Below, piece by piece: positions 53 to 11,559 of a stretch of DNA of 11,635 nt. Made by a program: the position numbers and the translations under genes. The notes beneath the pieces were generated by a model. The model did not search any database. It was not told the origin of the DNA and saw only the letters and a list, made by a program, of their open reading frames with translations. Each line of letters opens with the position of its first letter. Within the stretch, counting starts at the first letter, position 1. The DNA lies in IMG/VR virus record IMGVR_UViG_2639763139_000004, one strand, 5' to 3'. The stretch is from a virus. Taxonomy: Duplodnaviria; Heunggongvirae; Uroviricota; Caudoviricetes.

Positions 53-145
53 TCACTGATCCAACCACTGCAAAAACCAGTAGCCGGCACTGCCGGCGGA
101 GGTGCCGTAGGCAATGCCTGTTGATATTTTTTCCATCTGATACAT
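53..145 (-). pseudogene. N-terminal fragment of an S21/EssQ-type pinholin, truncated after the first transmembrane segment
   Basis: Minus-strand ORF ends ...[30 protein letters not shown]. Dual-Met start (ATG at 143-145 and 134-136) and the [22 protein letters not shown] segment match phage 21 S holin from memory. TGA at 53-55; no downstream frame encodes a second TMD. Confidence 0.5.
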
Positions 146-181
146 ATCCCGCCCCCCCGACAGACCTGTGCTATCGGAAAG

Positions 182-212
182 AAAAAAGGCCATCAGCAAA
201 ACTCTGATGGCC
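182..212 (-). terminator. Intrinsic terminator just upstream of the holin start
   Basis: Perfect 9-bp stem GGCCATCAG / CTGATGGCC (188-196, 204-212) with a 7-nt loop; on the minus-strand transcript it is followed by U6 (plus A-run 182-187). Confidence 0.55.
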
Positions 213-322
213 TGAATCACCTTTACCAATATTGTATGAAAAAACACGCACGACTAATTGACAATAATTTTCATTTCCATTAAAAAAGATCGCGCAGCAT
301 TCTTAATTCATGAGGAACTTTA

Positions 323-389
323 CCCGCCAGCAATCTGAGTAGCGAAAGCTGTTCATCCCCAATGTTTTTGCTGGCGGGTCCTTTTTTCT
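323..389 (+). repeat. Perfect 11-bp inverted repeat with 34-nt spacer, followed by a T-run on the plus strand
   Basis: CCCGCCAGCAA at 323-333 and its exact reverse complement TTGCTGGCGGG at 368-378, then TCCTTTTTTCT (379-389). Lies in the ORF-poor spacer between tRNAs and holin. Confidence 0.4.
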
Positions 390-825
390 ACGGTCCTCCT
401 CCCCGGAGGGGGCATTTCATTATTTTTCTAATCGTTACTGGTGAGAAGGCGGAAGAAAAAGCCAGTTCTTCGCCCCTAAATAATAGCATGATTCCAGTCC
501 ATGCAAAATCTGATTTCCAGCTCACACATACCGAGCACGGTACAAAAAACCGCCAACCAAGGCAGTTAAGAGTGTGTTCCCGGGGTTTGCTTAGAATATT
601 TTGTAAGTTGTCCGAAGAGATATTTACAACACCAGAATGATGCATTATCAGTCCCCTGCCAGAGGTTCACTACGTAACCTGACCGACAATGCACCATTCT
701 GGTGCTGAAAAAAGAGCACTGGAACTGCAACAAAACAACATCACAGAACAGGAGATGGTAAGGAGTCAGACATTCCCACACAATATTGTGTCAGTGCAAA
801 TAACAACCTTCGTCTCAAATCTCGC

Positions 826-900
<75 letters not shown>

Positions 901-903
901 ATA

Positions 904-979
<76 letters not shown>

Positions 980-981
980 GC

Positions 982-1058
982 TGGCCCACCACCGAGGACT
1001 CGAACCTCGCACCGTCAACTTAGAAGGTTGATGCTCTATCCGGATGAGCTAGTGGTGG
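982..1058 (-). tRNA. tRNA-Arg (anticodon UCU, reads AGA)
   Basis: Reverse complement CCACCACTAGCTCATCCGGATAGAGCATCAACCTTCTAAGTTGACGGTGCGAGGTTCGAGTCCTCGGTGGTGGGCCA. Perfect acceptor, D, anticodon and T stems; loop CUUCUAA; encoded CCA; unusual C1:G72. Confidence 0.8.
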
Positions 1059-1059
1059 T

Positions 1060-1136
1060 TGGTGGCCCTTGCTGGACTTGAACCAGCGACCTGGCGATTA
1101 TGAGTCGCTCGCTCTGACCAACTGAGCTAAAGGGCC
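1060..1136 (-). tRNA. tRNA with CAU anticodon, probably tRNA-Ile2 (ileX/ileZ-like, AUA decoder) rather than Met
   Basis: Reverse complement GGCCCTTTAGCTCAGTTGGTCAGAGCGAGCGACTCATAATCGCCAGGTCGCTGGTTCAAGTCCAGCAAGGGCCACCA. Anticodon loop CUCAUAA; overall similarity to E. coli ileX from memory. Ile versus Met identity cannot be settled from sequence alone. Confidence 0.8.
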
Positions 1137-1224
1137 GGAGGCAGAATAATAACCATATGTCATCACATCTGCAAACTCATCTGATCACCAGCACGTTTAA
1201 CGTCCTGTGCCGTTTTTCAGGTAT

Positions 1225-1246
1225 AAAAAAAACCGCATAAAGCGGG
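1225..1246 (-). terminator. Weak candidate intrinsic terminator (tR'-like) between Q and the tRNA cluster
   Basis: Minus-strand transcript reads GAGCCCGCUUUAUGCGG followed by U8 (plus A-run 1225-1232); the stem is only 4-5 GC pairs. Confidence 0.35.
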
Positions 1247-1325
1247 CTCTTTCAAATGTCCATGTCTGCTATTCGCCTCGCGGTACAGCTTTGCGATGCG
1301 TACAAGAATTGAAGCAGTTTTTACG

Positions 1326-1880
1326 TCAAAAAGCAATAACTTTTTTCTCTATACCAAAAGCCATAACCATTGGTTTGTGCAAAATAAATTCTGCCACCTT
1401 TAGCCAATGCTCAATGCGTCTTTCACAGGTTCTTAAACTCCATTTCGGGTGTGCATCATTCAGCAGTTCAGCCATTTTGCATTTGGTCATCCCCCGCCCC
1501 TCATACCGTTGCCGAAGGACGCTAATCAATCCTGGATGCTCTGCCAGCACCTCACTTATGACCCGATCAATACATAACGCCTCTGCATCAGTACAATGCG
1601 CCAGCCAGCTCTTTTGCTTACCGTTAATCATATCCCGCAAAAAAGCCTCAAGTTCAGACTTGTTCAGACCTGCTTTTTTCATCCTCCGGAGCGCCTCGTT
1701 AATTGCCGTTTTTGTCAGCTTTTTAGAGGTCAACATCAGGTTAAACATATTCCCCGTCTTACCGCCACCAATATACGACCAGCGCCCCCACATACGTAGT
1801 TTTCCCTGAATCCAGACACTTTCCAGCGTGGTGAGACGAAGGTGTTCTCCGCTTTTTCCTGTATTCGTTGGGTAAATCAT
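1326..1880 (-). CDS. Putative late-gene antitermination protein Q (184 aa)
   Basis: ATG at 1878-1880 with GGAG upstream, overlapping the stop of the preceding gene (ATGA). Last gene before a terminator, the tRNAs and the holin; follows nin-like genes. The upstream ORF extension to 2000 is rejected. Assignment is mostly positional. Confidence 0.55.
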   Translation of the reverse strand: MIYPTNTGKSGEHLRLTTLESVWIQGKLRMWGRWSYIGGGKTGNMFNLMLTSKKLTKTAINEALRRMKKAGLNKSELEAFLRDMINGKQKSWLAHCTDAEALCIDRVISEVLAEHPGLISVLRQRYEGRGMTKCKMAELLNDAHPKWSLRTCERRIEHWLKVAEFILHKPMVMAFGIEKKVIAF

Positions 1881-2167
1881 AAATATCCATCCTTTCTCCA
1901 GATTTCTTGTGTGCGAAAAACACCTTCTGCATGCATCAGGCGTAATTCTTCTTTGGTGTAATCGCTGGTTTTTACCCGCCCGTCGATTAAATCGTGGCAC
2001 GAGCTACAGGCAATCGCTGCCTGCATATCGTGTGGCTTTATCGCTGTTCCGCACGTTCCCGCCAGTCGGTAATGCGCCAGCACAGACGTTTCCGGAGCGT
2101 GATTGCAGTAGCCAGGAATTCTGACGGTGCACATCTGCCCCCGCGCCGCTTTAAGTAAATCCACCAT
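1877..2167 (-). CDS. YbcO-like (DUF1364-type) Cys/His-rich nin-region protein, 96 aa
   Basis: ATG 2165-2167 with GGAG upstream; stop overlaps the next start. Motifs CTVRIPGYCNHAPETSVLAH and CSSCHDLIDGR suggest a metal-binding nuclease-like fold; family from memory. Confidence 0.6.
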   Translation of the reverse strand: MVDLLKAARGQMCTVRIPGYCNHAPETSVLAHYRLAGTCGTAIKPHDMQAAIACSSCHDLIDGRVKTSDYTKEELRLMHAEGVFRTQEIWRKDGYL

Positions 2168-2766
2168 TACGCAAACTCCAGCAGCTGCGCGGCCACATTT
2201 TCGACTTGTTCCGGAGAGGAAAATTTACGGAACAGAATCCAGTTCCACAGCACATTCAGTACAGATTTATAAACCTGCTGAAACTCGGTTTCGTCCATAT
2301 TCGCAAACGCGATAGATTTCGCCCGACACCCACGGCTACCGTCCGGATAAAAATGCTCGGTGTAAAATCCGGCCTGAATGGCTACCCACTCGCGGAAAGC
2401 CTCAAACGACTTTAGCAATGCCGTATCACGGGTTCTGCGTGTCGCAACTGTATTCAGATATTGCTCTGCGGCTTCGCTCAGAGCTGGCGTATGTTCCCGG
2501 CCTACTGATTCACACAGGTAATCAACGAAACCGGACACCAGTTTTCGTTCGCGAGGCGTGATCGCCCCACCGACCGGAGTCCAGTAATCGAAACCCAGTT
2601 GCAGGAGTTTGAAAAAACGCTTGTGGAATGCGTAGTTACGCACACGCTTAAAGTCTGCGTGTATCCACTCACCTATTTTGATTTGATGCAGAAAATCGCA
2701 ACTCTCCGGCGTCGCCGGGAGAAGTAATCCGGAAGAGGTTTGTTTGACCAGTTGTATATGTGCCAT
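2167..2766 (-). CDS. Conserved lambdoid nin-region protein (possibly DUF1367/YbcN-like), 199 aa
   Basis: ATG 2764-2766 preceded by GGAGAAAGCC; TAATG overlap with the downstream gene. Family assignment tentative; the TTG-initiated upstream extension is rejected. Confidence 0.6.
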   Translation of the reverse strand: MAHIQLVKQTSSGLLLPATPESCDFLHQIKIGEWIHADFKRVRNYAFHKRFFKLLQLGFDYWTPVGGAITPRERKLVSGFVDYLCESVGREHTPALSEAAEQYLNTVATRRTRDTALLKSFEAFREWVAIQAGFYTEHFYPDGSRGCRAKSIAFANMDETEFQQVYKSVLNVLWNWILFRKFSSPEQVENVAAQLLEFA

Positions 2767-2804
2767 CGGCTTTCTCCGGTGGCACGGTGTTACACAGCAG
2801 GAGT

Positions 2805-3092
2805 TCAATCCTGCTCAAGATTGTAGATGAGTTTATTCTTCAGCAAAAGCAGAAAACCAGCCTTAAAACCAATCTTTTTCAAAACCCGTAATGATGTGAC
2901 AAATTCGTCCTCACGCAAAATAAAACCGTCCGTCAGAAGTCCATTACAAAAATAAAATAACACAGCACCGCTCTTCCTTTGTTGAGATTGCAAACATCTA
3001 ATGCGGCAATGGCTGACAATCGCTCCATTCTCAACGCGCACAGCATAGAGGCCATTTTCACTAAAAATTTCACGCAATTCTTCGATTTTCAT
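2805..3092 (-). CDS. Hypothetical protein, 95 aa
   Basis: ATG 3090-3092 with GGAAGGA upstream. Sits between hok and the nin-like genes. No family recognised. Confidence 0.45.
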   Translation of the reverse strand: MKIEELREIFSENGLYAVRVENGAIVSHCRIRCLQSQQRKSGAVLFYFCNGLLTDGFILREDEFVTSLRVLKKIGFKAGFLLLLKNKLIYNLEQD

Positions 3093-3172
3093 CTTCAGAA
3101 TCCTTCCAGATAAATAGCTCTCCCCTGTTCGGGGTCCATCCCTCTTCTCCCTGCGCGCTACTTAAGTGAGTC

Positions 3173-3200
3173 GATTCTATCTGCGAAGGTGCGCGAATCA
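3173..3200 (-). promoter_or_regulatory. Candidate sigma70 promoter for the nin-like/Q operon
   Basis: Minus strand TTGATT (3200-3195), 16-nt spacer, TAGAAT (3178-3173). Just downstream of the hok terminator, about 80 nt before the 2805-3092 ORF. Confidence 0.3.
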
Positions 3201-3220
3201 AATTCACCGGAAATAAACAA

Positions 3221-3266
3221 CAAAAAACCCGCCGAAACGCTGAGAGATCACAGCGATGGGCGGGTT
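3221..3266 (-). terminator. Intrinsic terminator at the 3' end of the hok transcript
   Basis: Minus strand AACCCGCC...GGCGGGTT 8-bp stem (3226-3266 region) followed by UUUUUUG (plus A-run 3222-3227). Confidence 0.5.
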
Positions 3267-3341
3267 AAGTGCGGGTGCGTTGAGGATGCCTGACACATCA
3301 GAGGTGGGCGGGGATGGGATCAGCTCCCCACCCGGTCACTC

Positions 3342-3497
3342 TTACTTCCTGGATTCGTAGTCTACGAAGACAGCGACCTCCGTCTGGCCGGTTCGGATTC
3401 GTACCTCACAGAGGTCTTTCCTCGTTACCAGTGCCGTCACTATGACGGTTAAACAGATGACGATCAGGGCGATTAACATCGCCTTTTGCTGCTTCAT
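3342..3497 (-). CDS. hok: Hok/Gef-family type I toxin (51 aa)
   Basis: MKQQKAMLIALIVICLTVIVTALVTRKDLCEVRIRTGQTEVAVFVDYESRK is near-identical in pattern to HokD/RelF from memory. ATG 3495-3497 preceded by AAGGAG. An in-frame upstream extension to 3554 is noted as a possible mok-like coupling reading frame. Confidence 0.85.
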   Translation of the reverse strand: MKQQKAMLIALIVICLTVIVTALVTRKDLCEVRIRTGQTEVAVFVDYESRK

Positions 3498-3668
3498 AGC
3501 CTGCTTCTCCTTGCCTTTCGGCATGTAAGAGGCTAACCTACATGTGCAAAGCATGAAATTGGCCTCAGATTAATGTTAAGCGTCTTGCCGGACGCGTAAT
3601 GTTAACTGGGGCTTTTCTCTATCTGCCTTTTGGTGTTCATGCCTGAAGCAGATAGCCTCAAGCACCCG

Positions 3669-3698
3669 CAGTCATTCTACTTACCTCGCCAATATGAA
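3669..3698 (-). promoter_or_regulatory. Candidate hok mRNA promoter
   Basis: Minus strand TTGATT (3698-3693), 18-nt spacer, TAGAAT (3674-3669). Predicted transcript of about 430 nt ends at the 3221-3266 terminator. Confidence 0.35.
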
Positions 3699-3724
3699 AT
3701 CAATCAGAAAGGTGCCCCATAAAA

Positions 3725-4411
3725 TCACTCCTTCTCTTCTTTACCGTAGTGGAGTTGACCAATTTTGATAAGAGGGCGTCCCTGAGATTTGCGGTGTAGA
3801 TTGGTATCGCGCAGAGAATACACACAGCCACAATATTCCTGCTGATAGAATTTTTCGCGCTTGCTGATTTCAATCATACGGGACGAGCCGCCCTGCTTGC
3901 GCCAGTTATAATCCCAGTACACCATGCCCGGATAATGCGCGACGGCTCGCCGCCCACAGTCGTTAACCTGCTGCATATTTTTCCAGCGTGAAATGCCCAG
4001 TGAACTGCTGATCACACTGAAACCATTTTCAGCGGCGTACAGCGCTGTCCGCTCAAAACGCATGTCAAAACACATGGTGCAACGGATCCCTCGTTCGGGC
4101 TCCCATTCCATTCCTTTGGCTCGTTCAAACCAGTTGTCTGTGTCGTAATCAGCATCAATAAACGGCACGCCGTGTTGTTCAGCAAAGCGAATATTCTCAT
4201 CCTTACGAATTAAATACTCTTTCTGAGGATGAATGTTCGGGTTGTAGAAAAAGATGGTGTAGTCGATTCCCGAGGCCTGAAGCGCCTCCATCACCTCACC
4301 GGAACATGGAGCACAGCAAGAGTGCAGTAGTAGTTTGTTTGCCCCGTTTGGGAGCTCCAATTTGGGCCGTTTGAAATCAGCAACTGTCATAAATATGTTT
4401 ATTGAGGTCAT
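3725..4411 (-). CDS. queH: QueH-like epoxyqueuosine reductase (DUF208), 228 aa
   Basis: [14 protein letters not shown] motif near the N-terminus plus further Cys clusters (CTMC, CGCV). ATG at 4409-4411; alternative ATG at 4388-4390; neither has a strong RBS. Confidence 0.65.
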
Positions 4412-4558
4412 AAAAATATCAAAGAGTGTAGCATTAGAACGGGGCTATCGGAAACAGATGTGTGACTGCTCCCCGCCCTTTCGGGCGGTCTCCTGATGAT
4501 TTGAGGGTGCAGAAATCCCTCCGGTTAAGGATTAAATTTTTAACAGTGCTAAATTTAA

Positions 4559-4915
4559 TTATTCAGTTCTGGATTTTGTCGCCCTGCGTATCCGCGCTTT
4601 CGCGTTACGCTCAATCTGTATCAGCTTTTCTATATTTCTCCGCCTTTCCTGTTCCTCCTGGCGCAATAGCCTTACATCATCTGCCAGTCTGGTTTCTCTT
4701 TTTGCCACAGAGAGCATCCAGTCAAACGGCTCCACAACCGCACCGCAGATTTTACAGCGGACCTGACGCTCTTTTTCGTCAACCCGTACAGAGGCGTGAT
4801 GGCAATATGGTCTTTCCGATGGCTTATAAAGAAAATTAACCTGATTACGAGGGTCATCCTCTTTTATCGGAAATAAAACGATATTGCTTAACTCATCTTC
4901 TGGTTTTATTTCCAT
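4559..4915 (-). CDS. Hypothetical zinc-ribbon protein with basic coiled-coil tail, 118 aa
   Basis: ATG 4913-4915 preceded by AAAGGAGAGGAGC. Contains CHH...(17 aa)...CKIC. The longer upstream ORF start is rejected. Confidence 0.6.
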   Translation of the reverse strand: MEIKPEDELSNIVLFPIKEDDPRNQVNFLYKPSERPYCHHASVRVDEKERQVRCKICGAVVEPFDWMLSVAKRETRLADDVRLLRQEEQERRRNIEKLIQIERNAKARIRRATKSRTE

Positions 4916-4972
4916 GCTCCTCTCCTTTGATGCGAATGCCAGCGGTAATTGAAGCCTGATAGCTAATTTCAT

Positions 4973-5395
4973 TCACAGTATCGCCTCCTGAAAATTACCC
5001 TGATAGAAAGCCAGTACACGCTGCATAGCTTCGCTCTTCCGGCACTCGCGACAGATTATATTCAGGCGCCTGTCGTAGCGGCGTATTTCTCCGTCAGGTA
5101 ATGACCAGATAAGGTCCGGATCAACAACAACCGGTTTCCTCACCTTTACTCTCGAGAGTTTTTTGCGGGCGCTTTGCCAGTCCTTGCGAGCCTGTTCAGA
5201 CGGGAATAAGCCGTAGCCAGAATTATATACATCACCACTTGCGACCAGTTCTATGCATAAGCGACCGACAGACGCACGACTGATACCTGTTTCATCGGAC
5301 AACTGCCGAATCGTGACCCGACCGTCCTGATGCACGAGTTCCACAATTCGCGTCTTCAGTTCTTCCCGCTGTTCGGGAGTAAAAGGTTTCGCCAT
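4973..5395 (-). CDS. Hypothetical winged-helix DNA-binding protein with C-terminal CxxC, 140 aa
   Basis: ATG 5393-5395 preceded by GGAGG at 5-nt spacing. HTH-like segment TIRQLSDETGISRASVGRL; CRECRK near the C-terminus. No family recognised. Confidence 0.6.
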   Translation of the reverse strand: MAKPFTPEQREELKTRIVELVHQDGRVTIRQLSDETGISRASVGRLCIELVASGDVYNSGYGLFPSEQARKDWQSARKKLSRVKVRKPVVVDPDLIWSLPDGEIRRYDRRLNIICRECRKSEAMQRVLAFYQGNFQEAIL

Positions 5396-5409
5396 AAATC
5401 CTCCTGAAA

Positions 5410-6156
5410 CTACTTAACAACCCTCGAATGGCTAACATTCGGACGCCAGCTCTCCCAGTTAAAATTCACCCAGCGCCCGCCGTTCATGACCATGCGATCC
5501 ATCACCCGCTCGCCGAGCAATGTTTTCATCACCTCATAGTTCAGGTTTGTCAGCATCCCCACGCTGCGCATCGACGCTGTCCGGCGATCAACAATCTGGT
5601 GCAGCACCACCTGCTCGTTTTTCGTCTCGCGCTGAATGCCAATTTCATCAAGAACCAGCAGATCCACTTCGCACAGCTCCCGCAAAAATTTTTCGCCTGA
5701 CTGCCCGTCGTCATAGCTGGCGTGCAGGGCGCTCATAACATCAGCCACGGTAACCACAATCACTGTCTGACCGTCTTTCAGCAGGCGATTCCCGATAGCT
5801 GCCGCTAAGTGATTCTACCCGGTATCAGGTTTTCCGCTGAACGCAAAATTTGTACACCCGGTCATCAGTTCATCGGCGATGGATTTCGCCTGGCTTAACG
5901 CGTATCGCTGGCCGTCGTTCTGCACCTGGTAATTCGCAAACGAGCATTTACGGTGCAACGGCTGGATGCCTGAGCGATTCAGAATTTTTTCCACCCGCAA
6001 CTGGCGATTCAGGCGGTTGATCTCCTCGCTACGTTTCTGGCCTTCAGCAAGTTGCCACTCGCGCCACTCCGCTACCGTTCTGAATGGGGCGGTTACATGT
6101 GGCGGGGTCAGTCGGCGGATGCGTTCCAGAACGCCGCCTGTCGCAATATTTTTCAT
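5410..6156 (-). pseudogene. DnaC-like helicase loader interrupted by an in-frame amber codon at the Walker A lysine
   Basis: Two listed ORFs (5815-6156 and 5410-5763) are in the same frame. Translation reads ...FAFSGKPDTG-TAG-NHLAAAIGNRLL...DLLVLDEIG..., with TAG at 5815-5817 where the P-loop Lys is expected. Walker B is present downstream. Confidence 0.7.
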
Positions 6157-6547
6157 GGTCCGTTACCCCCTGAAGCCTGGCGGGATCGCACTGTCCGGCA
6201 ACGAGACGGTGTTAACCTGTCGGAGCAACGTCTCAGGCCGAACACCTTTCGGCGCGAACAGACCCTGGTATTCATTGGCGATGCTGTGTCGAATCACCTG
6301 CTCAGGTGTAAAACCCTGCTGACGGAATTTTTCCAGTTCCCGTATCGCCCTGCTCCGTTCGAATCGGTTTTCGCAATGCCTGTCTGAACCGGACCCACTC
6401 ATGCCAGAGTGTTTCCGGCAACCAATCGGGCAGCTCAATAGCCTCCGGCTCGAATTTTTTAGACGCTCGTTTTTGGCGAGGGGGATTTAGGGGGAGATCA
6501 GTATTTAGATCTTCCTCTTCCACTGGTAACGCTTTTTGATCCGTTTG

Positions 6548-6567
6548 TGTAACGCTGGCAGCGTTAC
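6548..6567. repeat. Palindrome TGTAACGC-N5-GCGTTAC, copy 1
   Basis: GTAACGCTG-G-CAGCGTTAC is a perfect 19-bp dyad inside the replisome-organizer gene. Confidence 0.6.
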
Positions 6568-6754
6568 CTTTTCGTTTCAGTTCGCGTATTTTTGTTACTC
6601 GCTCGTTTGTAACCGCCCGTTTTTTAGAGCTTTTTCCGTTATGACGTTCAAAGTTAGGTAGAGAAAGCCCACCGTCATTTTCGACCAGCCATCCAACCTG
6701 AATTAACGTATCAGCAAAACCAGACATAAAAGTGATGCGATCTATTGCACTTTT

Positions 6755-6775
6755 TGTAACGCCGCGAGCGTTACA
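6755..6775. repeat. Palindrome TGTAACGC-N5-GCGTTACA, copy 2
   Basis: TGTAACGC cgcga GCGTTACA, perfect 8-bp arms, inside the replisome-organizer gene. Confidence 0.6.
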
Positions 6776-6946
6776 ATCTGCATTACCGTCTATCATTTGT
6801 TGATCCGCCCATGCCCAGAAGCGAATAACCTTCCCTAATGCGGCATCTGGATCAATATTCAGAATCTCAGCAAGCCTGAATATTTCCGGCTTATCCGGCG
6901 TAATAACCTCGAGCTTTATCCAGTTTGAAGCCATTTGTTTTCACCT

Positions 6947-6967
6947 TGTAACGCTCGCAGCGTTACA
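6947..6967. repeat. Palindrome TGTAACGC-N5-GCGTTACA, copy 3
   Basis: TGTAACGC tcgca GCGTTACA, perfect 8-bp arms, 13 bp upstream of the replisome-organizer start codon. Confidence 0.6.
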
Positions 6968-7011
6968 TTTAACTGATACCGAACAAAACAATCCGGCACG
7001 ATTAATTTCAA

Positions 7012-7434
7012 TCAATGCACTACGACAGAATCGCCGGGCGACCCACCACCGCTGAAATGTGCTTTCCGGTAAACGGCCTGGACAGCATCATCATGCGCAT
7101 CAATTGCCGTACTCAACGCTTCCTGCGCCGCCAGTAATGCACGGCGTTCCAGGGTATCGAAGATACAGAGTCGGTGACGCAGCTCACGCGGAAGAATTGC
7201 CAGAACCGCAGGGATCAGTTTCTGAATTTTTTCCCTTTGCGCTTTCGTTTCACCTTTCAACCAACGGTGATAGATATTCTGCTGATTGTTCCAGTCCTTG
7301 CCTGGTACCAGAGACAATTCGCCGCCCCCCTGCCGCAGATATTCTTCAGTAATTGCGTTAGCGACCCACGCCTGCCCTTTTTCGGCTGCCAGGGCTAACA
7401 GCACTGATTCGATGTGCTCATGCCTGATTTTCAT
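7012..7434 (-). CDS. YdaT-like (CII-position) prophage protein, 140 aa
   Basis: ATG 7432-7434 overlapping the end of the Cro-like gene. Sequence MKIRHEHIESVLLALAAEKGQAWVANAI... matches the Rac YdaT family from memory. Occupies the cII position. Confidence 0.7.
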   Translation of the reverse strand: MKIRHEHIESVLLALAAEKGQAWVANAITEEYLRQGGGELSLVPGKDWNNQQNIYHRWLKGETKAQREKIQKLIPAVLAILPRELRHRLCIFDTLERRALLAAQEALSTAIDAHDDAVQAVYRKAHFSGGGSPGDSVVVH

Positions 7435-7645
7435 GAATCACCTTCCCAGGTCGTTTTGCCTTACGATATTCGTCATAAACTTTGGGGTCGTACTGAAGTT
7501 CCCCGCCAGATGCCTCTTGCAGGCGCATCGCGCGACCTTCAGGAACCAGTTCCCCCCATGCAGCAATGCTTGCCAGCCTAACTCCTGCGGCATTGGCAAG
7601 CTTTGTTTTGCTGCCAAAAAACGCTATAGCATCAATTTTCAACAT
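7418..7645 (-). CDS. dicC: DicC/YdaS-like Cro-type regulator, 75 aa
   Basis: ATG 7643-7645 preceded by TAAGGAG. Divergent from the repressor gene. Sequence pattern matches DicC from memory. Confidence 0.75.
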   Translation of the reverse strand: MLKIDAIAFFGSKTKLANAAGVRLASIAAWGELVPEGRAMRLQEASGGELQYDPKVYDEYRKAKRPGKVIHENQA

Positions 7646-7653
7646 ATCGAGCT

Positions 7654-7713
7654 CCTTAGATTTTCCTAAGGAAACTAGACCGTAGAGAAACCTAAGTCAA
7701 GAAAAATTAGAAT
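7654..7713. promoter_or_regulatory. Right-operator-like region with two copies of a 14-bp operator motif and divergent promoters
   Basis: Palindrome CCTTAGATTTTCCTAAGG at 7654-7671 and minus-strand CTTAGGTTTCTCTA at 7683-7696. TAGAAT at 7708-7713 lies 8 nt before the repressor ATG, which has no SD. Confidence 0.5.
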
Positions 7714-7721
7714 TCCCTAAT

Positions 7722-8129
7722 ATGAAAAACGAAACCTTCGGTGCTCGCCTCTTACATAGGCGTAAAAAATTAAAACTGTCTCAGGCCGCATTAGGTAAGC
7801 TGGTCAAAGTGGCTCACGTAACAATTTCTCAATGGGAAAGAGATGAAACACAGCCGGCGGGGAAAAGATTATTCGCACTGAGCCAAGCGCTTCAGTGCTC
7901 ACCGACTTGGCTTCTTTTTGGGGATGAAGATAAACAACCAGGCGAACCGATCCCGGATAATCAGCCAGCCATTCTGACAGAAGATCAAAAAGAGTTACTT
8001 CAACTGTTCGACGCACTGCCTGAGTCAGAGCAAAAGGCCCTGTTGTCAGAGATGCGTGCTCGAGTTGAAAATTTCAACAAACTTTTTGAAGAACTACTCA
8101 AAGCTCGCAAAAGAAGCGCAAACAAATAA
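7722..8129 (+). CDS. dicA: DicA-like HTH repressor, 135 aa, no S24 peptidase domain
   Basis: ATG 7722, TAA 8127-8129. HTH segment LSQAALGKLVKVAHVTISQWERDETQP and tail LFALSQALQCSPTWLLFGDEDKQ...NFNKLFEELLKAR match DicA from memory. Confidence 0.85.
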   Translation: MKNETFGARLLHRRKKLKLSQAALGKLVKVAHVTISQWERDETQPAGKRLFALSQALQCSPTWLLFGDEDKQPGEPIPDNQPAILTEDQKELLQLFDALPESEQKALLSEMRARVENFNKLFEELLKARKRSANK

Positions 8130-8201
8130 TCCCCTTTTTTCTCCACACCCTGTAATAAAAAGCACAAACTTTCAAACACTTGTGTTTTTTACATCAAAAA
8201 G

Positions 8202-8254
8202 CTTAGGTTTTTCTACACAAAAATCTTGACCACCCTCCTTAGGTTATTCTAAAT
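8202..8254 (+). promoter_or_regulatory. Left-operator-like region: two more copies of the operator motif flanking a candidate promoter
   Basis: CTTAGGTTTTTCTA at 8202-8215 and CTTAGGTTATTCTA at 8239-8252. TTGACC at 8226-8231 with a weak -10 around 8249-8255, upstream of the ydfA-like gene. Confidence 0.45.
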
Positions 8255-8331
8255 TTTATTCATCAAGACACCGCACGGTGTTCTCAGCAAACAGTTCCGC
8301 TACCCCGGCGTTAAGGGGAAATGGGGTCAAC

Positions 8332-8487
8332 ATGAATACTATCGATCTTGGCAACAACGAATCTCCGGTGTACGGCGTGTTCCCCAACCAGGACGGCACA
8401 TTCACCGCCATGACGTATACCAAAAGCAAAACGTTTAAAACCGAAGCTGGCGCACGTCGTTGGTTGGGAAGACATTCAGGTGAGTAA
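8332..8487 (+). CDS. ydfA: YdfA/YdaF-like small protein (DUF1391-type), 51 aa
   Basis: ATG 8332 with AAGGGGA upstream. MNTIDLGNNESPVYGVFPNQDGTFTAMTYTKSKTFKTEAGARRWLGRHSGE; first gene after the repressor, as in the dicB operon. Confidence 0.7.
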   Translation: MNTIDLGNNESPVYGVFPNQDGTFTAMTYTKSKTFKTEAGARRWLGRHSGE

Positions 8488-8488
8488 A

Positions 8489-8692
8489 ATGAACGAGACA
8501 GAATTAAAACACGTTATCGCTCTACTCCTAGAAGATGCAAAACGCCTCCAGCAACTGGAGCCAAATGCAGGCACTGGGGCACGCATCTGGCTGGCTAAAG
8601 AAGCGCTGGAATCTGGCGATTATGATAGCGAAGAAGCCTTCTACAAAGCAGAAGGCCGTGCAGGATATTCACCGGGTCTTGGCGGGGTATAA
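8489..8692 (+). CDS. Hypothetical small protein, 67 aa
   Basis: ATG 8489 immediately after the upstream stop, preceded by AGGTGAG. No family recognised. Confidence 0.5.
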   Translation: MNETELKHVIALLLEDAKRLQQLEPNAGTGARIWLAKEALESGDYDSEEAFYKAEGRAGYSPGLGGV

Positions 8693-8933
8693 ATACCATG
8701 CGCATTGACTGAATTCGCAAACAAAAACAGACGCGCGATACCCGGATAGTCGGTCTGCATAGTCAGATATCTGGCTGCGAATTTGATAAATATCACCGCC
8801 CTTTTCGGAAACATAAGTTCCGTCCGGGAGTTGATTATACGAACCATCTCCATGGGGGATCGTTCTCCTGAATCCTAGTGAGAGCATATATTTATGAAGC
8901 CCTTCGTAATCCTCTGGCTCAGTGGATTTGCCC

Positions 8934-9839
8934 CTATATTTCCAGACATCTGTTATCACTTAACCCATTACAAGCCCGCTGCCGCAGATATTCCCGTGGC
9001 GAGCGATAACCCAGCGCACTATGCGGATGCCATTCGTTATAATGCTCGAACGCCTCTGCAAGGTTCTTTGCTGCCGTTAACCCGTCTGGTTTGGGCATGA
9101 TACTGATGTAGTCACGCTTTATCGTTTTCACGAAGCTCTCTGCTATTCCGTTACTCTCCGGACTCCGCACCGCCGTGTTCTTCGGTTCAAGTCCCAACAT
9201 CCGGGCGAACTGGCGTGTTTCATTAGCCCGGTAGCATGAACCATTATCCGTCAGCCACTCCACTGGAGACGACGGAAGATCGTTGCCGAAGCGGCGTTCC
9301 ACCGCTCCCAGCATGACGTCCTGTACTGTTTCACTGTTGAAGCCGCCGGTAGTCACCGCCCAGTGCAGTGCCTCACGATCACAGCAGTCCAGCGCGAACG
9401 TGACACGCAGTCTCTCTCCGTTATCACAGCAGAACTCGAACCCGTCAGAGCACCATCGCTGATTGCTTTCTTTCACGGCCACTCTGCCTGTATGTGCCCG
9501 TTTCGATGGCGGTACAGCAGGTTTTCGCTCAAGCAACAGCGCATTCTGGCGCATGAGCCGGTAAACACGTTTGGCATTGATCGCAGGCATACCATCAAGT
9601 TCTGCCTGTCTGCGAAGCAGCGCCCATACCCGACGATAACCATACGTGGGCAGCTCTCCGATAACATGGTGTATACGGAGAAGCACATCCGTATCATCAG
9701 TGTGACGACTGCGGCGGCCATCCATCCAGTCATCGGTTCGTCTGAGAATGACGTGCAACTGCGCACGCGACACCCGGAGACAACGGCTGACTAAGCTTAC
9801 TCCCCATCCCCGGGCAATAAGGGCGCGTGCGCTATCCAC
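8934..9839 (-). CDS. insD: IS2 transposase OrfB (InsD), made as an OrfAB fusion by -1 frameshifting
   Basis: 301-aa frame with integrase-core motifs. Slippery heptamer A AAA AAG at 9839-9845 (minus) sits at the InsC/InsD overlap. Confidence 0.9.
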
Positions 9840-10162
9840 TTTTTTGCCCGTCCATATTCAACGGCTTCTTTGAGGAGTTCATTTTCCATCGTTTTCTTGC
9901 CGAGCAGGCGCTGGAGTTCTTTAATCTGCTTCATGGCGGCAGCAAGTTCAGAGGCAGGAACAACCTGTTCTCCGGCGGCCACAGCAGTAAGACTTCCTTC
10001 CTGGTATTGCTTACGCCAGAGAAATAACTGGCTGGCTGCTACACCATGTTGCCGGGCAACGAGGGAGACCGTCATCCCCGGTTCAAAGCTCTGCTGAACA
10101 ATTGCGATCTTTTCCTGTGTGGTACGCCGTCTGCGTTTCTCCGGCCCTAAGACATCAATCAT
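9797..10162 (-). CDS. insC: IS2 OrfA (InsC), 121 aa
   Basis: ATG 10160-10162; sequence [41 protein letters not shown]... is a typical IS3-family HTH OrfA. Confidence 0.9.
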
Positions 10163-10474
10163 CTGTTCTCCAATGACTAGTCTAAAAACTAGTATTAAGA
10201 CTATCACTTTTTAACATTGATGCAGTCTCTTTGAGAGCTGACATCGCTAATACATCACTTGCTCACTCTTCTTATTGTTGGGGTATTCAGATTATACAAA
10301 TTTCTTGTTGTTGGGGAATAACAGGAACCACCTCGCCTGACGTAGTTAAAAGCAGGCACACAACGCGAAATGACGCGGCGGTAAGTATGGCGGAGTTATT
10401 CCTTCCCCGTTGAGGACACCGGGTTGTCAGGTTGACCATACGCTTAAGTGACAACCACGCCACAACACTCCATG

Positions 10475-10530: not shown

Positions 10531-10826
10531 AAAGTGAATTTTGTGATGCGGTGAATGCGGCTGAGCGCACGCGGAACAGTTAAAAAGCGATTAGTTCCCA
10601 CGTATCGGGTGGTTATGGGTTTCCCTGTATCCGGCGTTAATTGTTAACTGGTTAACGTCACCTGGAGGCACCAGGCACCGCATCAACAAAGTTCACTTCG
10701 GTGATGAAAGGTAAGAGAAAATGTTGAATGTAGCTATTGAAAACCAGAACGGGTGGAATTATAGTGCATCTGCACCTCATAAAACGGGGGCCGGGCGTGG
10801 AAACCCGAACGTTACTCGAGCGCATA

Positions 10827-10848
10827 GCCGCGCTGAAGCGGTTTTTTT
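10827..10848 (+). terminator. Hairpin plus T7 in the leader upstream of the Rha-like gene
   Basis: AGCCGC gctgaa GCGGTT followed by TTTTTTT (10842-10848). Lies inside the rejected N-terminal extension of the Rha ORF. Confidence 0.35.
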
Positions 10849-11017
10849 ATGCGTAATGCACAGCTCCATTCAAATTATGGTGGGATGTGCAGGGCAGTCG
10901 CAAGACTGGCCGGGTTCTCGAGTGACCGGTATTTCCACCCCTGTACGTCTCACCACCCTTATGGTCGTGGAAAACCTCGGTGGTGAGTTAATTAACTTAT
11001 CACTCGAGGATGCCATC

Positions 11018-11559
11018 ATGGCTACTATCCCTGCCCTTTCTCACCCTGACGTAACCATCGAAAACGGTCGCGCTGTCACTACGTCTGTTGCGGTTGCAGA
11101 GTTCTTCCACAAACGACACGACAATGTGTTACGTGCCATCGCAAATACTGAATGCTCACCTGAATTTAACGCCCTCAATTTTGAGGACGTCACCTACACC
11201 GACACCAAAGGCGAAAAACGCCCAATGTACCAAATCACCAAAAACGGCTTCGTTTTCCTGGTGATGGGCTTCACTGGGAAAAAAGCCGCTGCATTCAAAG
11301 AGGCCTACATCGCTGATGTTCGACCGCATGGAGGCAGAACTGCACCAGAATAATACCCCGTCCGCTGACAAGATGATTCCGGGTAACGGTCGCACTCTGG
11401 TTGTGCACTTCGACGAACACGGCAATATCAGATTCACCGAAACTGTTCCTGACGGTGCACTGGTCTGTACCCTGGATACTTTCCAGTTTTATCTGGAAAA
11501 ACAGGGGTGGGCTCTTGTAAACCGGAGCGCAATTAAAAATATGACCGTAGAGCAGCTGC
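11018..11559 (+). pseudogene. Rha-family regulatory protein gene, frameshifted near 11318 and cut at its 3' end by IS2
   Basis: ATG 11018 preceded by GAGGA. Frame 1 gives ...VAVAEFFHKRHDNVLRAI...MYQITKNGFVFLVMGFTGKKAAAFKEAYIAD then VRPHGGRTAPE*. The Rha-like continuation FDRMEAELHQ... is in the +1 frame from 11319 and runs into the IS2 end at 11560. Confidence 0.55.

What the first reader, a model, noticed from the sequence alone, without database searches (positions are those of the whole stretch)
3221..3700. hok-type type I toxin locus with promoter, fold-back terminator and a possible antisense Sok
The hok ORF is intact with a strong RBS and an in-frame upstream mok-like extension. A candidate antisense promoter on the plus strand (TTGCCT 3511-3516, 17 nt, TAACCT 3534-3539) would give an RNA complementary to the mok start region, as Sok is. 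Chromosomal hok loci often lose sok; whether this one is still regulated is open.
Basis: partly seen in the sequence, partly recalled or inferred. Interest (0 to 1): 0.45.

Follow-up and report, generated by a model that had tools for sequence, protein, structure and literature searches.

The report
Intact prophage hokW/sokW toxin-antitoxin cassette
This is an ordinary, complete copy of the already characterised hokW/mokW/sokW RNA-regulated toxin-antitoxin cassette in a defective lambda-like prophage, and its antisense Sok gene and promoter are still intact.

Summary
On the minus strand, 3703-3221 holds a complete hok-family cassette: promoter, hok mRNA leader, in-frame mok, 51-aa Hok (Pfam HOK_GEF), a 5'/3' fold-back and a terminator. 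The leader matches Rfam RF01794 (117 bits). The locus is about 92% identical to hokW/mokW/sokW of phages 933W and Sp5, and Hok differs at one residue. That system has been shown experimentally to be a type I toxin-antitoxin pair.

The -10 is the element mutated in the published promoter-less sokW construct. By homology, Sok spans 3546-3616 (+) and folds as a free 5' tail plus a long hairpin.

Taken alone the hexamers are weak (7/12; 287 comparable sites in the window). The support therefore comes from homology, not from consensus strength. RefSeq labels the gene hokD, but K-12 hokD lacks this whole leader.

Transcription and toxicity were not testable here.

Two side observations:
- The Sok 5' tail/target segment is hypervariable among otherwise near-identical copies, including copies in one genome.
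- This lineage carries a 23-nt insertion in the terminator loop.

Novelty: already known. Interest is low.

The parts
3698..3703 (-). hok promoter -35 (TTGATT)
   Evidence: Promoter scan. This hexamer lies in sequence that differs from 933W, which has a 26-nt indel upstream of the -10.
3674..3679 (-). hok promoter -10 (TAGAAT)
   Evidence: The position is kept as TAGAAT, TAAGAT, TAAAAT or TACAAT in relatives.
3221..3667 (-). Predicted full-length mok-hok mRNA (about 447 nt)
   Evidence: The 5' end is inferred from the start of the Rfam RF01794 match and the 6-nt distance from the -10. The 3' end is inferred from the terminator. MFE z = -7.45.
3656..3667 (-). tac element (GGGUGCUUGAGG), the 5' end of the mRNA
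   Evidence: It pairs with fbi in the full-length fold and with AAGCCCC in the Rfam consensus structure. It is almost invariant: 0.003 differences per site across 54 relatives.
3608..3616 (-). ucb / anti-SD (AAAAGCCCC)
   Evidence: It pairs with the mok SD region in the full-length MFE and with tac in the Rfam consensus. The R1 model is described in PMC9841398.
3546..3616 (+). Sok antisense RNA (predicted, 71 nt)
   Evidence: Mapped from the sokW misc_RNA of 933W. It folds as a 9-nt free 5' tail plus a long hairpin plus a U-rich end, -30.2 kcal/mol, z = -4.9.
3511..3516 (+). Sok promoter -35 (TTGCCT), overlapping the hok SD on the other strand
   Evidence: Identical in 933W. Its columns are invariant in 58 unique relatives. 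R1-type loci have TTGCGC at the same place.
3534..3539 (+). Sok promoter -10 (TAACCT)
   Evidence: Identical to the sokW -10. Primer YO-421 of PMC8621323 changes TAGGTTA to CCGGCTC in hok sense to make the promoter-less construct. R1-type loci have TATCCT.
3563..3566 (-). mok Shine-Dalgarno (GAGG)
   Evidence: Invariant in relatives. It lies 8 nt upstream of the mok ATG.
3342..3554 (-). mok reading frame (70 codons, in frame with hok)
   Evidence: It is homologous to mokW.
3529..3566 (-). Predicted Sok-target hairpin (SDmok GAGGC paired with GCCUC, loop CUUUGCA)
   Evidence: -13.6 kcal/mol. It matches the Rfam consensus helix. The inner stem has no covariation support.
3546..3562 (.). Hypervariable segment: the Sok 5' tail on one strand, and the mok start and target loop on the other
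   Evidence: 0.325 differences per site, against 0.024 in the adjacent Sok hairpin and 0.067 at hok third codon positions.
3342..3497 (-). hok toxin gene (51 aa) with SD AAGGAG at 3512-3507
   Evidence: Pfam HOK_GEF, E 4e-23. It differs from HokW at one residue, R50 against E.
3306..3333 (-). Post-stop hairpin, the likely road-block for 3' trimming
   Evidence: A 9-bp stem. Relatives keep the hairpin with paired changes, for example GGCGGGAGAG/CTCTCCCGCC against GGCGAGGGAG/CTCCCTCGCC. The role is inferred from R1 (PMC1635323 and PMC9841398).
3271..3285 (-). fbi element (CCUCAACGCACCCGC)
   Evidence: Complementary to the 5' end apart from one bulged C. Conserved in relatives.
3221..3266 (-). 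Intrinsic terminator with a lineage-specific 23-nt insertion (3259-3237) in its loop
   Evidence: Fold of -22.8 kcal/mol, against -11.8 for the common short form AACCCGC-TTCG-GCGGGTT. The insertion occurs only in the window, L051, L053/54 and L055/56.

Best explanation
The region is a complete hok/mok/sok type I toxin-antitoxin cassette of the hokW/sokW subtype. It sits in the nin region of a defective lambdoid prophage, between QueH and the DUF1367/YbcO/Q-like genes, on the strand of the early rightward operon. The sequence matches Shigella flexneri and two 'E. coli' FDAARGOS genomes.

The proposed mechanism is as follows. Steps 1-4 are inferred from the R1 and Sp5 experiments. What is shown here is that the sequence elements each step needs are present.

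1. A weak constitutive promoter (3703-3674) makes a roughly 447-nt mok-hok mRNA. Its 5' end (tac) pairs with fbi near the 3' end, while ucb sequesters the mok SD. The full-length RNA is therefore neither translated nor bound by Sok.
2. Slow 3' exonucleolytic trimming back to the post-stop hairpin removes fbi. The 5' end then refolds onto ucb, and the mok SD moves into a target hairpin.
3. A short unstable Sok RNA is made from TTGCCT-17-TAACCT on the plus strand (about 3546-3616). Its free 5' tail binds the target loop, blocks mok translation and so the coupled hok translation, and the duplex is cut by RNase III.
4. When Sok supply stops, Hok is made and damages the inner membrane. Supply would stop on loss of the element, on a transcription block, or on prophage induction as seen for Sp5.
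For: - **Family match:** Rfam RF01794 hits 3667-3492 on the hok strand at 117 bits against a gathering score of 59. The same model hits the hok-sense leader of 933W, an R1-type plasmid locus and a hokC-type locus.
- **Toxin:** Hok hits Pfam HOK_GEF.
- **Homology:** identity to hokW/mokW/sokW of 933W and VT2-Sakai is 91.8% over 70% of a 611-nt query. The alignment shows identical Sok promoter hexamers and hok SD, and one amino-acid change in Hok.
- **Sok mapping:** 933W annotates a 71-nt sokW whose 5' end overlaps mokW.
- **Published experiments** (PMC8621323): HokW is toxic. sokW expressed from its own promoter neutralises it. Mutating the -10 abolishes protection. sokW RNA is detected by northern blot. 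The antitoxin effect partly needs RNase III and Hfq.
- **R1 comparison:** R1-type loci have TTGCGC-17-TATCCT at the same position.
- **Structure:** the Sok fold has z = -4.9. The full-length mRNA fold shows tac-fbi pairing and SDmok-ucb pairing with z = -7.45.
- **Conservation:** across 54-58 unique relatives, tac, SDmok, the Sok hexamers and the hok SD are almost invariant.
- **Context:** Cro, a CI-like repressor, YdaT, a DnaC-like gene, QueH, DUF1367, YbcO, a Q-like DUF1133 gene and tRNAs.
- **R1 mechanism:** described in PMC9841398 and PMC1635323.
Against: - There are no expression or toxicity data for this allele or this host.
- The Sok hexamers are weak by consensus: 7/12, not listed by the scan, with 287 comparable sites in the window.
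- The MFE of a 3'-truncated RNA did not reproduce the tac-ucb pairing. It gave a local 5' hairpin instead. The refolding step therefore rests on the Rfam consensus structure and on R1 work.
- The terminator carries a 23-nt loop insertion and the post-stop hairpin has an enlarged loop. Neither is seen in most relatives. Their effect on termination and 3' processing is unknown.
- According to Pedersen and Gerdes 1999, as summarised in the 2025/26 preprint, intact chromosomal hokA, hokB and hokC loci did not give post-segregational killing. Sequence integrity therefore does not prove activity.
- The prophage is defective, so the Sp5-type role in phage release may not apply.
Confidence: 0.85

Rival explanations
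1. The locus is an inert relic. The sequence looks whole, but like the K-12 chromosomal hok loci it is no longer activatable, and the lineage-specific 3' changes may have locked or destabilised the mRNA. It would then be carried passively in a decaying prophage.
For: - The prophage is degraded. Its DnaC-like gene has an in-frame stop in the Walker A motif, and an IS3-family element lies at 8.9-10.2 kb.
- The terminator-loop insertion and the altered post-stop hairpin are confined to this lineage.
- Chromosomal hokA, hokB and hokC were reported unable to mediate post-segregational killing.
Against: - Every element known to be required in R1 is present and unbroken: the hok promoter, tac, ucb, SDmok, mok, the hok SD, hok, the road-block hairpin and fbi.
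- The one base that differs from the closest relatives inside the post-stop hairpin (3330 T against C) keeps the pair as G-U.
- The 98%-identical HokW is toxic.
Confidence: 0.1
2. No Sok is made here. On this reading the plus-strand hexamers are conserved only because they overlap the hok SD (-35) and the dcb/target-stem sequence (-10) on the mRNA strand, and the promoter match is incidental.
For: - The hexamers score 7/12, and 287 equally good sites occur in the window.
- Both hexamers overlap functional elements of the hok mRNA. Conservation alone therefore cannot separate the two strands.
Against: - In Sp5 the same -10 hexamer was mutated and protection was lost. Supplying sokW in trans restored protection, and sokW RNA was seen by northern blot.
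- The window is identical in both hexamers and differs at one spacer base.
- The downstream plus strand folds as a classical tail-plus-hairpin antisense RNA with a U-rich end.
Confidence: 0.04
3. The parts are the same but the role differs. Rather than acting as an addiction module, the cassette would be a lysis or induction accessory, as proposed for Sp5. Early rightward transcription running through the cassette against the Sok promoter would lower Sok after induction and release Hok.
For: - hok lies on the same strand as cro and the replication, nin and Q-like genes. No terminator-like site was found between QueH and hok.
- Transcripts reaching the Q-like gene must cross the cassette and its terminator.
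- In Sp5, sokW RNA disappears and HokW appears after mitomycin C in a RecA-dependent way, and phage release halves without the locus.
Against: - In 933W and Sp5 the cassette is at a different place, near the right end of the genome and not in the nin region. Read-through from pR therefore cannot be the general explanation.
- This prophage looks replication-defective.
- Transcriptional interference is pure inference.
Confidence: 0.3

Closest known systems
hokW/mokW/sokW of Stx2 phages 933W and Sp5 (VT2-Sakai)
   Same: - Nucleotide identity is about 92% across leader, mok/hok and fbi.
- Hok is identical at 50 of 51 residues.
- The Sok promoter hexamers, hok SD, SDmok, tac, ucb and Sok hairpin are identical.
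- mok is in frame with hok.
- The system is experimentally validated as a type I TA pair (PMC8621323).
   Different: - Seven substitutions cluster in the Sok 5' tail, mok start and target loop. The window reads CCAATTTCATGCTTTGC where 933W reads CTCAATCCATGCTGAAC.
- The sequence upstream of the hok -10 differs, so the -35 differs.
- The post-stop hairpin has a larger loop.
- The 3' end differs: the window has a GC stem plus U6 terminator with a 23-nt loop insertion, while 933W diverges straight after fbi.
- The position in the phage genome differs: nin region here, near the right end in 933W.
hok/sok (parB) of plasmid R1 and related IncF plasmids
   Same: The architecture and element order are the same. 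The elements are tac GG(C/G)GCUUGAGG, ucb AGCCCC, SDmok GAGG, the Sok promoter over the hok SD with a 17-nt spacer, the hok SD AAGGAG, the Hok/Gef toxin and a 3' fbi. Both match Rfam RF01794.
   Different: - Overall nucleotide similarity is low. HokW is 44% identical to R1 Hok according to PMC8621323.
- The Sok hairpin is about 19 nt longer here.
- The hexamers are TTGCCT/TAACCT here and TTGCGC/TATCCT in R1.
- The carrier is a prophage, not a plasmid.
E. coli K-12 hokD (relF), the name RefSeq gives this gene
   Same: The toxin is 90% identical over all 51 residues, differing mainly at the C-terminus (VDYESRK here). The post-stop hairpin, fbi and terminator core are similar.
   Different: - K-12-type hokD sits directly behind relE.
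- Homology to the window starts only at the hok SD (query position about 210, window about 3511).
- It has no hok promoter, tac, ucb, mok start or Sok, and gives no Rfam leader hit.
- The window has all of these.
hokC/gef-sokC of Escherichia chromosomes
   Same: mok is in frame, the leader architecture is the same, and it matches the Rfam leader model at 118 bits.
   Different: - Nucleotide identity is about 75%.
- The Sok hairpin is shorter, with an 18-nt deletion at its top.
- The -35 is TTGACC.
- The location is chromosomal rather than prophage.

Membership tests
[quoted passage not shown] | Small hydrophobic Hok/Gef toxin | tested here: met
   The 51-aa ORF 3497-3342 hits PF01848 at 81 bits against a cut-off of 22.
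[quoted passage not shown] | mok reading frame with its own SD that starts upstream of hok and overlaps it | tested here: met
   A 70-codon ORF runs 3554-3342 with GAGG 8 nt upstream. Here mok is in frame with hok, as annotated for mokW in 933W.
[quoted passage not shown] | Structured hok mRNA leader matching the family covariance model | tested here: met
   RF01794 scores 117 bits, E 1e-26, over model positions 1-157 of 157, on the hok strand.
[quoted passage not shown] | Long-range tac-fbi pairing of the mRNA 5' and 3' ends | tested here: met
   12 nt of the 5' end pair with 3285-3271, with one bulge, in the MFE. z = -7.45.
[quoted passage not shown] | Alternative tac-ucb pairing and release of the mok SD after 3' truncation | tested here: inconclusive
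   The Rfam consensus structure pairs GGGUGCUU with AAGCCCC, and the window fits it. However, the MFE of a truncated RNA gave a local 5' hairpin instead.
[quoted passage not shown] | cis-encoded antisense Sok with its promoter over the hok SD region, a free 5' tail and a terminator hairpin | tested here: met
   This is met at sequence level. The hexamers and 17-nt spacer are at the position homologous to sokW and R1 Sok. The fold has a 9-nt tail plus a hairpin. Transcription itself was not testable.
[quoted passage not shown] | Toxicity of Hok and neutralisation by Sok; unstable Sok against stable hok mRNA; RNase III cleavage | not testable with these tools
   These were shown for the 98%-identical HokW and for sokW in PMC8621323, not for this allele.
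hokW/sokW subtype (lambdoid prophage cassettes) | Close sequence identity to the 933W/Sp5 cassette, including the Sok promoter | tested here: met
   Identity is 91.8%. Both hexamers are identical. The HokW-type C-terminus VDYES(E/R)K is present.
hokW/sokW subtype (lambdoid prophage cassettes) | Same Sok recognition tail as sokW of Sp5 | tested here: not met
   The first 21 nt of Sok differ at 7 positions: GCAAAGCATGAAATTGGCCTC here against GTTCAGCATGGATTGAGCCTC in 933W. This points to a different tail class within the subtype.
K-12-type hokD (relF) | hok fused behind relBE, without its own leader, mok start or sok | tested here: not met
   The window has the full leader. The K-12-type locus L008 lacks it and gives no Rfam hit.

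The most novel reading that the evidence does not exclude
The most novel reading not excluded is that the 17-22 nt forming the Sok 5' tail and its target loop (3546-3562) act as a specificity determinant under diversifying selection. Prophage hokW-type cassettes would then fall into at least ten discrete recognition classes. Co-resident copies would not cross-protect, so each prophage keeps its own private antidote. The window would represent one class, distinct from the characterised Sp5 sokW.

Support:
- The tail shows 0.325 differences per site, against 0.067 at hok third codon positions and 0.024 in the adjacent Sok hairpin.
- The three full copies in S. flexneri SFBU1023 carry three different tails.
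- In four Photorhabdus genomes, no two co-resident copies share a tail, while the rest of the leader is nearly invariant.

Still open: relaxed constraint combined with recombination could give the same pattern, and no fixed-register covariation was found in the target stem. Comparable discrimination has been reported for other type I families; this is from my own knowledge of Sib/Ibs and OrzO/ZorO.
Probability: 0.4. Interest if true: 0.45.

Novelty: already known. Interest (0 to 1): 0.18.

Why it matters
There are three practical consequences.

- **Annotation:** RefSeq labels this gene hokD and lists no mok or sok. This suggests the sok-less K-12 relic, whereas the locus is a full hokW/sokW-type cassette with its antitoxin intact.
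- **Shigella and E. coli genomics:** it adds one more apparently live toxin-antitoxin module that could stabilise a defective prophage.
- **Sok tail hypervariability:** this side observation, if functional, would explain how several near-identical hok/sok cassettes coexist in one polylysogen without cross-neutralising. That is directly testable with cross-protection assays.

Tried and rejected
- **Pattern scan for the Sok promoter and the terminator.** Neither was reported. The promoter scores 7/12 and the terminator loop exceeds the 8-nt limit. Both were instead established by homology and folding.
- **Folding a 3'-truncated mRNA to see the tac-ucb switch.** The MFE gave a local 5' hairpin, so the result is inconclusive.
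- **Covariation test of the Sok-target hairpin on 21 distinct haplotypes.** Only the invariant GAGGC/GCCUC base stem is common. The inner stem has 76% of cells paired, no better than shuffles, and no double-sided changes. Each haplotype does fold into the same shape on its own, but there is no formal covariation support.
- **Literature search for 'CssrC', the alternative Rfam name.** It returned only unrelated papers.
- **K-12 hokD identity, as the RefSeq name implies.** Rejected, because K-12-type loci lack the whole leader.
- **Whether the 23-nt terminator-loop insertion is a local duplication.** No other copy of any of its 11-mers occurs in the window, and its origin is unknown.
- **Tools left unused.** The large protein-database, structure-prediction and metagenome tools were not used, because the identity was settled by DNA-level homology.

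Full report
**What is in the sequence**

Read on the minus strand, the region contains the following elements in order:
- a promoter-like pair, TTGATT-18-TAGAAT, at 3703-3674
- a leader beginning GGGUGCUUGAGG at 3667
- GAGG at 3566-3563, followed 8 nt later by an ATG at 3554 that opens a 70-codon frame
- AAGGAG at 3512-3507, followed 9 nt later by the ATG at 3497 of a 51-codon frame ending at 3342, in the same frame as the upstream ATG
- a 9-bp hairpin at 3333-3306
- CCUCAACGCACCCGC at 3285-3271
- a GC-rich stem plus U6 at 3266-3221 (coordinates)

The 51-aa product hits Pfam HOK_GEF at 81 bits. Rfam's RF01794 model matches 3667-3492 over its full length at 117 bits, E 1e-26.

That match is on the strand of the hok ORF and ends at the hok start codon. 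Despite the family name 'sok', it therefore recognises the hok mRNA leader, the region that Sok is antisense to. The same orientation is seen in 933W, an R1-type plasmid locus and a hokC-type locus.

**Fold-back and terminator**

The 447-nt RNA 3667-3221 folds at -187.7 kcal/mol (z = -7.45). Its first 12 nt pair with 3285-3271 with one bulge. The mok SD pairs with the AAGCCCC box at 3616-3608. This is the closed, full-length arrangement described for R1 (PMC9841398).

The terminator scan missed the 3' hairpin because its loop is 25 nt. Folded alone it gives an 8-bp stem with an inner 5-bp stem, -22.8 kcal/mol, followed by U6.

**The antisense promoter**

On consensus alone they are unimpressive. 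They match 7 of 12 positions, the scan did not report them, and the window holds 287 sites of at least that quality.

Homology is what makes them meaningful:
- The locus is 91.8% identical to hokW/mokW/sokW of phages 933W and VT2-Sakai (Sp5).
- In the pairwise alignment both hexamers are identical and the spacer differs at one base.
- 933W annotates sokW as a 71-nt RNA whose 5' end lies 8 nt inside mokW. That maps here to 3546-3616 (+).
- Takada et al. 2021 (PMC8621323) showed four things. HokW arrests growth. The cloned hokW-sokW locus is harmless unless the sokW promoter is mutated. sokW supplied in trans partly rescues growth. sokW RNA is visible on northern blots.
- Their mutagenic primer YO-421 replaces TAGGTTA with CCGGCTC in hok sense. 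That destroys exactly the TAACCT hexamer.
- An R1-type IncFII locus aligned to the window has TTGCGC-17-TATCCT at the same position, over the hok SD.

The predicted Sok RNA folds as a 9-nt free 5' tail, a long interrupted hairpin and a U-rich 3' end, at -30.2 kcal/mol and z = -4.9. This is the R1 Sok architecture described in PMC1635323.

**Is this the sok-less chromosomal type?**

It is not. RefSeq calls the identical gene hokD. In K-12-type hokD loci (L008, directly downstream of relE, and L042), similarity to the window starts only at about window position 3511, at the hok SD. Everything upstream is unrelated, and no Rfam leader hit is found. The window carries the whole leader.

Across 54-58 unique relatives from IMG/VR and genomes, the following are nearly invariant:

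| Element | Differences per site |
|---|---|
| tac | 0.003 |
| SDmok | 0 |
| Sok hairpin | 0.024 |
| Sok promoter | 0.061 |

The hok SD is also nearly invariant, with a mean column entropy of 0.04 bits.

**Context**

The minus strand carries, in order: cro (7645-7418), a YdaT-like gene, replication genes, DUF977, QueH (4411-3725), the hok cassette, an unknown ORF, DUF1367, YbcO, a Q-like DUF1133 gene and four tRNA genes. A CI-like repressor lies on the plus strand. This is the early-right/nin region of a lambdoid prophage.

The region recurs almost identically in E. coli FDAARGOS_943 and 944 (99.8% over the 611-nt locus query; 98.9-99.5% over window 56-8922 against FDAARGOS_943) and in S. flexneri SFBU1023.

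The prophage is defective. The DnaC-like gene has an in-frame stop inside its Walker A motif (GKPDTG*NH), and an IS3-family element lies at 8934-10207.

In 933W the cassette lies elsewhere, near the right genome end. It therefore behaves as a mobile module.

**Mechanism**

The presence and integrity of every element is shown here. The dynamics are inferred from R1 and Sp5:
- The full-length RNA is inert.
- Slow 3' trimming to the road-block hairpin removes fbi.
- The 5' end refolds onto ucb.
- The Sok tail binds the exposed target loop.
- RNase III cleaves the duplex.
- Hok is made when Sok decays.

The refolding step is only partly supported here. The window fits the Rfam consensus that pairs tac with ucb, but the MFE of a truncated RNA gave a different local hairpin.

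One context-specific inference follows from gene order. Early rightward transcripts must cross the cassette, converging on the Sok promoter, to reach the Q-like gene, and no terminator-like site lies between QueH and hok. This could couple Sok levels to induction, but it was not tested.

**Differences from the characterised allele**

- Seven substitutions are concentrated in the Sok 5' tail, mok start and target loop.
- The sequence upstream of the hok -10 differs.
- The post-stop hairpin has an enlarged loop, and the terminator loop carries a 23-nt insertion. Both are confined to the window's lineage.
- Hok has R50 where HokW has E.

**Side observation: a hypervariable Sok tail**

The stretch 3546-3562 is the most variable part of the functional transcript. 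It shows 0.325 differences per site, against 0.067 at hok third codon positions. It occurs as discrete haplotypes.

S. flexneri SFBU1023 carries three full copies with three different tails. In four Photorhabdus genomes with two to four copies each, no two co-resident copies share a tail, while the rest of the leader is almost identical.

Each of seven haplotypes folds into the same target hairpin with a different loop. A fixed-register pair count gives no covariation signal.

This pattern fits recognition classes that avoid cross-talk. It also fits relaxed constraint combined with recombination. A recent survey of Hok diversity (bioRxiv 10.1101/2025.08.07.668861) reports enrichment of hok in prophages. 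In the passages I searched, it does not discuss Sok tail variation.

**Verdict**

The locus is a sequence-intact member of an already characterised system, and the open question about Sok is answered at sequence level by homology to an experimentally tested promoter. Novelty is 'already known' and interest is low. A modest, testable side lead concerns Sok tail classes.

Noticed in passing
window 3546-3562 (both strands); loci L004, L009, L011; L025-L041: The Sok 5' tail, mok start and target loop are hypervariable: 0.325 differences per site against 0.024 in the adjacent Sok hairpin. The variation falls into discrete haplotypes. Co-resident copies in S. flexneri and in four Photorhabdus genomes all differ in this stretch, while the rest of the leader is near-invariant.
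   Followed up: partly
window 3237-3259 (- strand) and 3306-3333: A 23-nt insertion (CCATCGCTGTGATCTCTCAGCGT) lies in the loop of the hok terminator hairpin, and the post-stop hairpin has an enlarged loop. Both occur only in this lineage (window, L051, L053/54, L055/56). All other relatives have AACCCGC-TTCG-GCGGGTT. The origin and effect are unknown, and no other copy of the insertion occurs in the window.
   Followed up: partly
window 3492-3667 (-); L001, L016, L050: The Rfam family RF01794, named 'sok antitoxin', matches the hok-sense strand from the mRNA 5' end to the hok AUG in every locus tested. It therefore models the hok leader, not the Sok RNA itself. Strand calls from it should not be read as the Sok gene.
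   Followed up: yes
L002 (NZ_CP065615.1) 8264-8419, equivalent to window 3342-3497: RefSeq/PGAP names this gene hokD and annotates neither mok nor sok. K-12-type hokD (L008, behind relE) lacks the entire leader that is present here.
   Followed up: yes
window 5410-6156 (-): The DnaC/IstB-like replication gene (ydaV homologue) carries an in-frame stop inside its Walker A motif (GKPDTG*NHLAAA). The gene is intact in E. coli FDAARGOS_943. The prophage is probably replication-defective.
   Followed up: partly
window 8934-10207 (-): An IS3-family insertion sequence is present, with an HTH_Tnp_1 orfA of 136 aa and an rve orfB of 301 aa. It is 99.8% identical to the element RefSeq annotates as IS2 in L002. 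It lies between the immunity region and the Ash/Rha region.
   Followed up: no
window 10772-10960 (+): An isrK sRNA match (59.6 bits) is followed directly by a C4 antisense RNA match (76.7 bits). Both lie at the 5' side of an Ash/Rha-domain ORF (10721-11353). This resembles a P1/P7 immI-type antirepressor control module.
   Followed up: no
window 826-1136 (-): Four tRNA genes lie downstream of the Q-like gene. Their anticodons are CAT (called Ile in RefSeq), TCT (Arg), TGT (Thr) and TCC (Gly). This arrangement is typical of lambdoid late-region tRNA clusters.
   Followed up: no
window 3174-3201 (-): A second promoter-like site has the same hexamers as the hok promoter (TTGATT-16-TAGAAT). It lies just downstream of the hok terminator and upstream of the unknown 95-aa ORF 3092-2805.
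   Followed up: no
window 3725-4411 (-): A QueH (epoxyqueuosine reductase) gene is carried in the prophage immediately upstream of hok. Its stop codon lies 22 nt from the hok -35, and no terminator-like site lies between them.
   Followed up: no
L055/L056 (IMG/VR): A relative shares the window's hok gene, Sok promoter and unusual 3' end, but has unrelated sequence upstream of the mok start. It therefore lacks the hok promoter, tac, ucb and Sok body. This is an independent leader truncation resembling the hokD situation.
   Followed up: no
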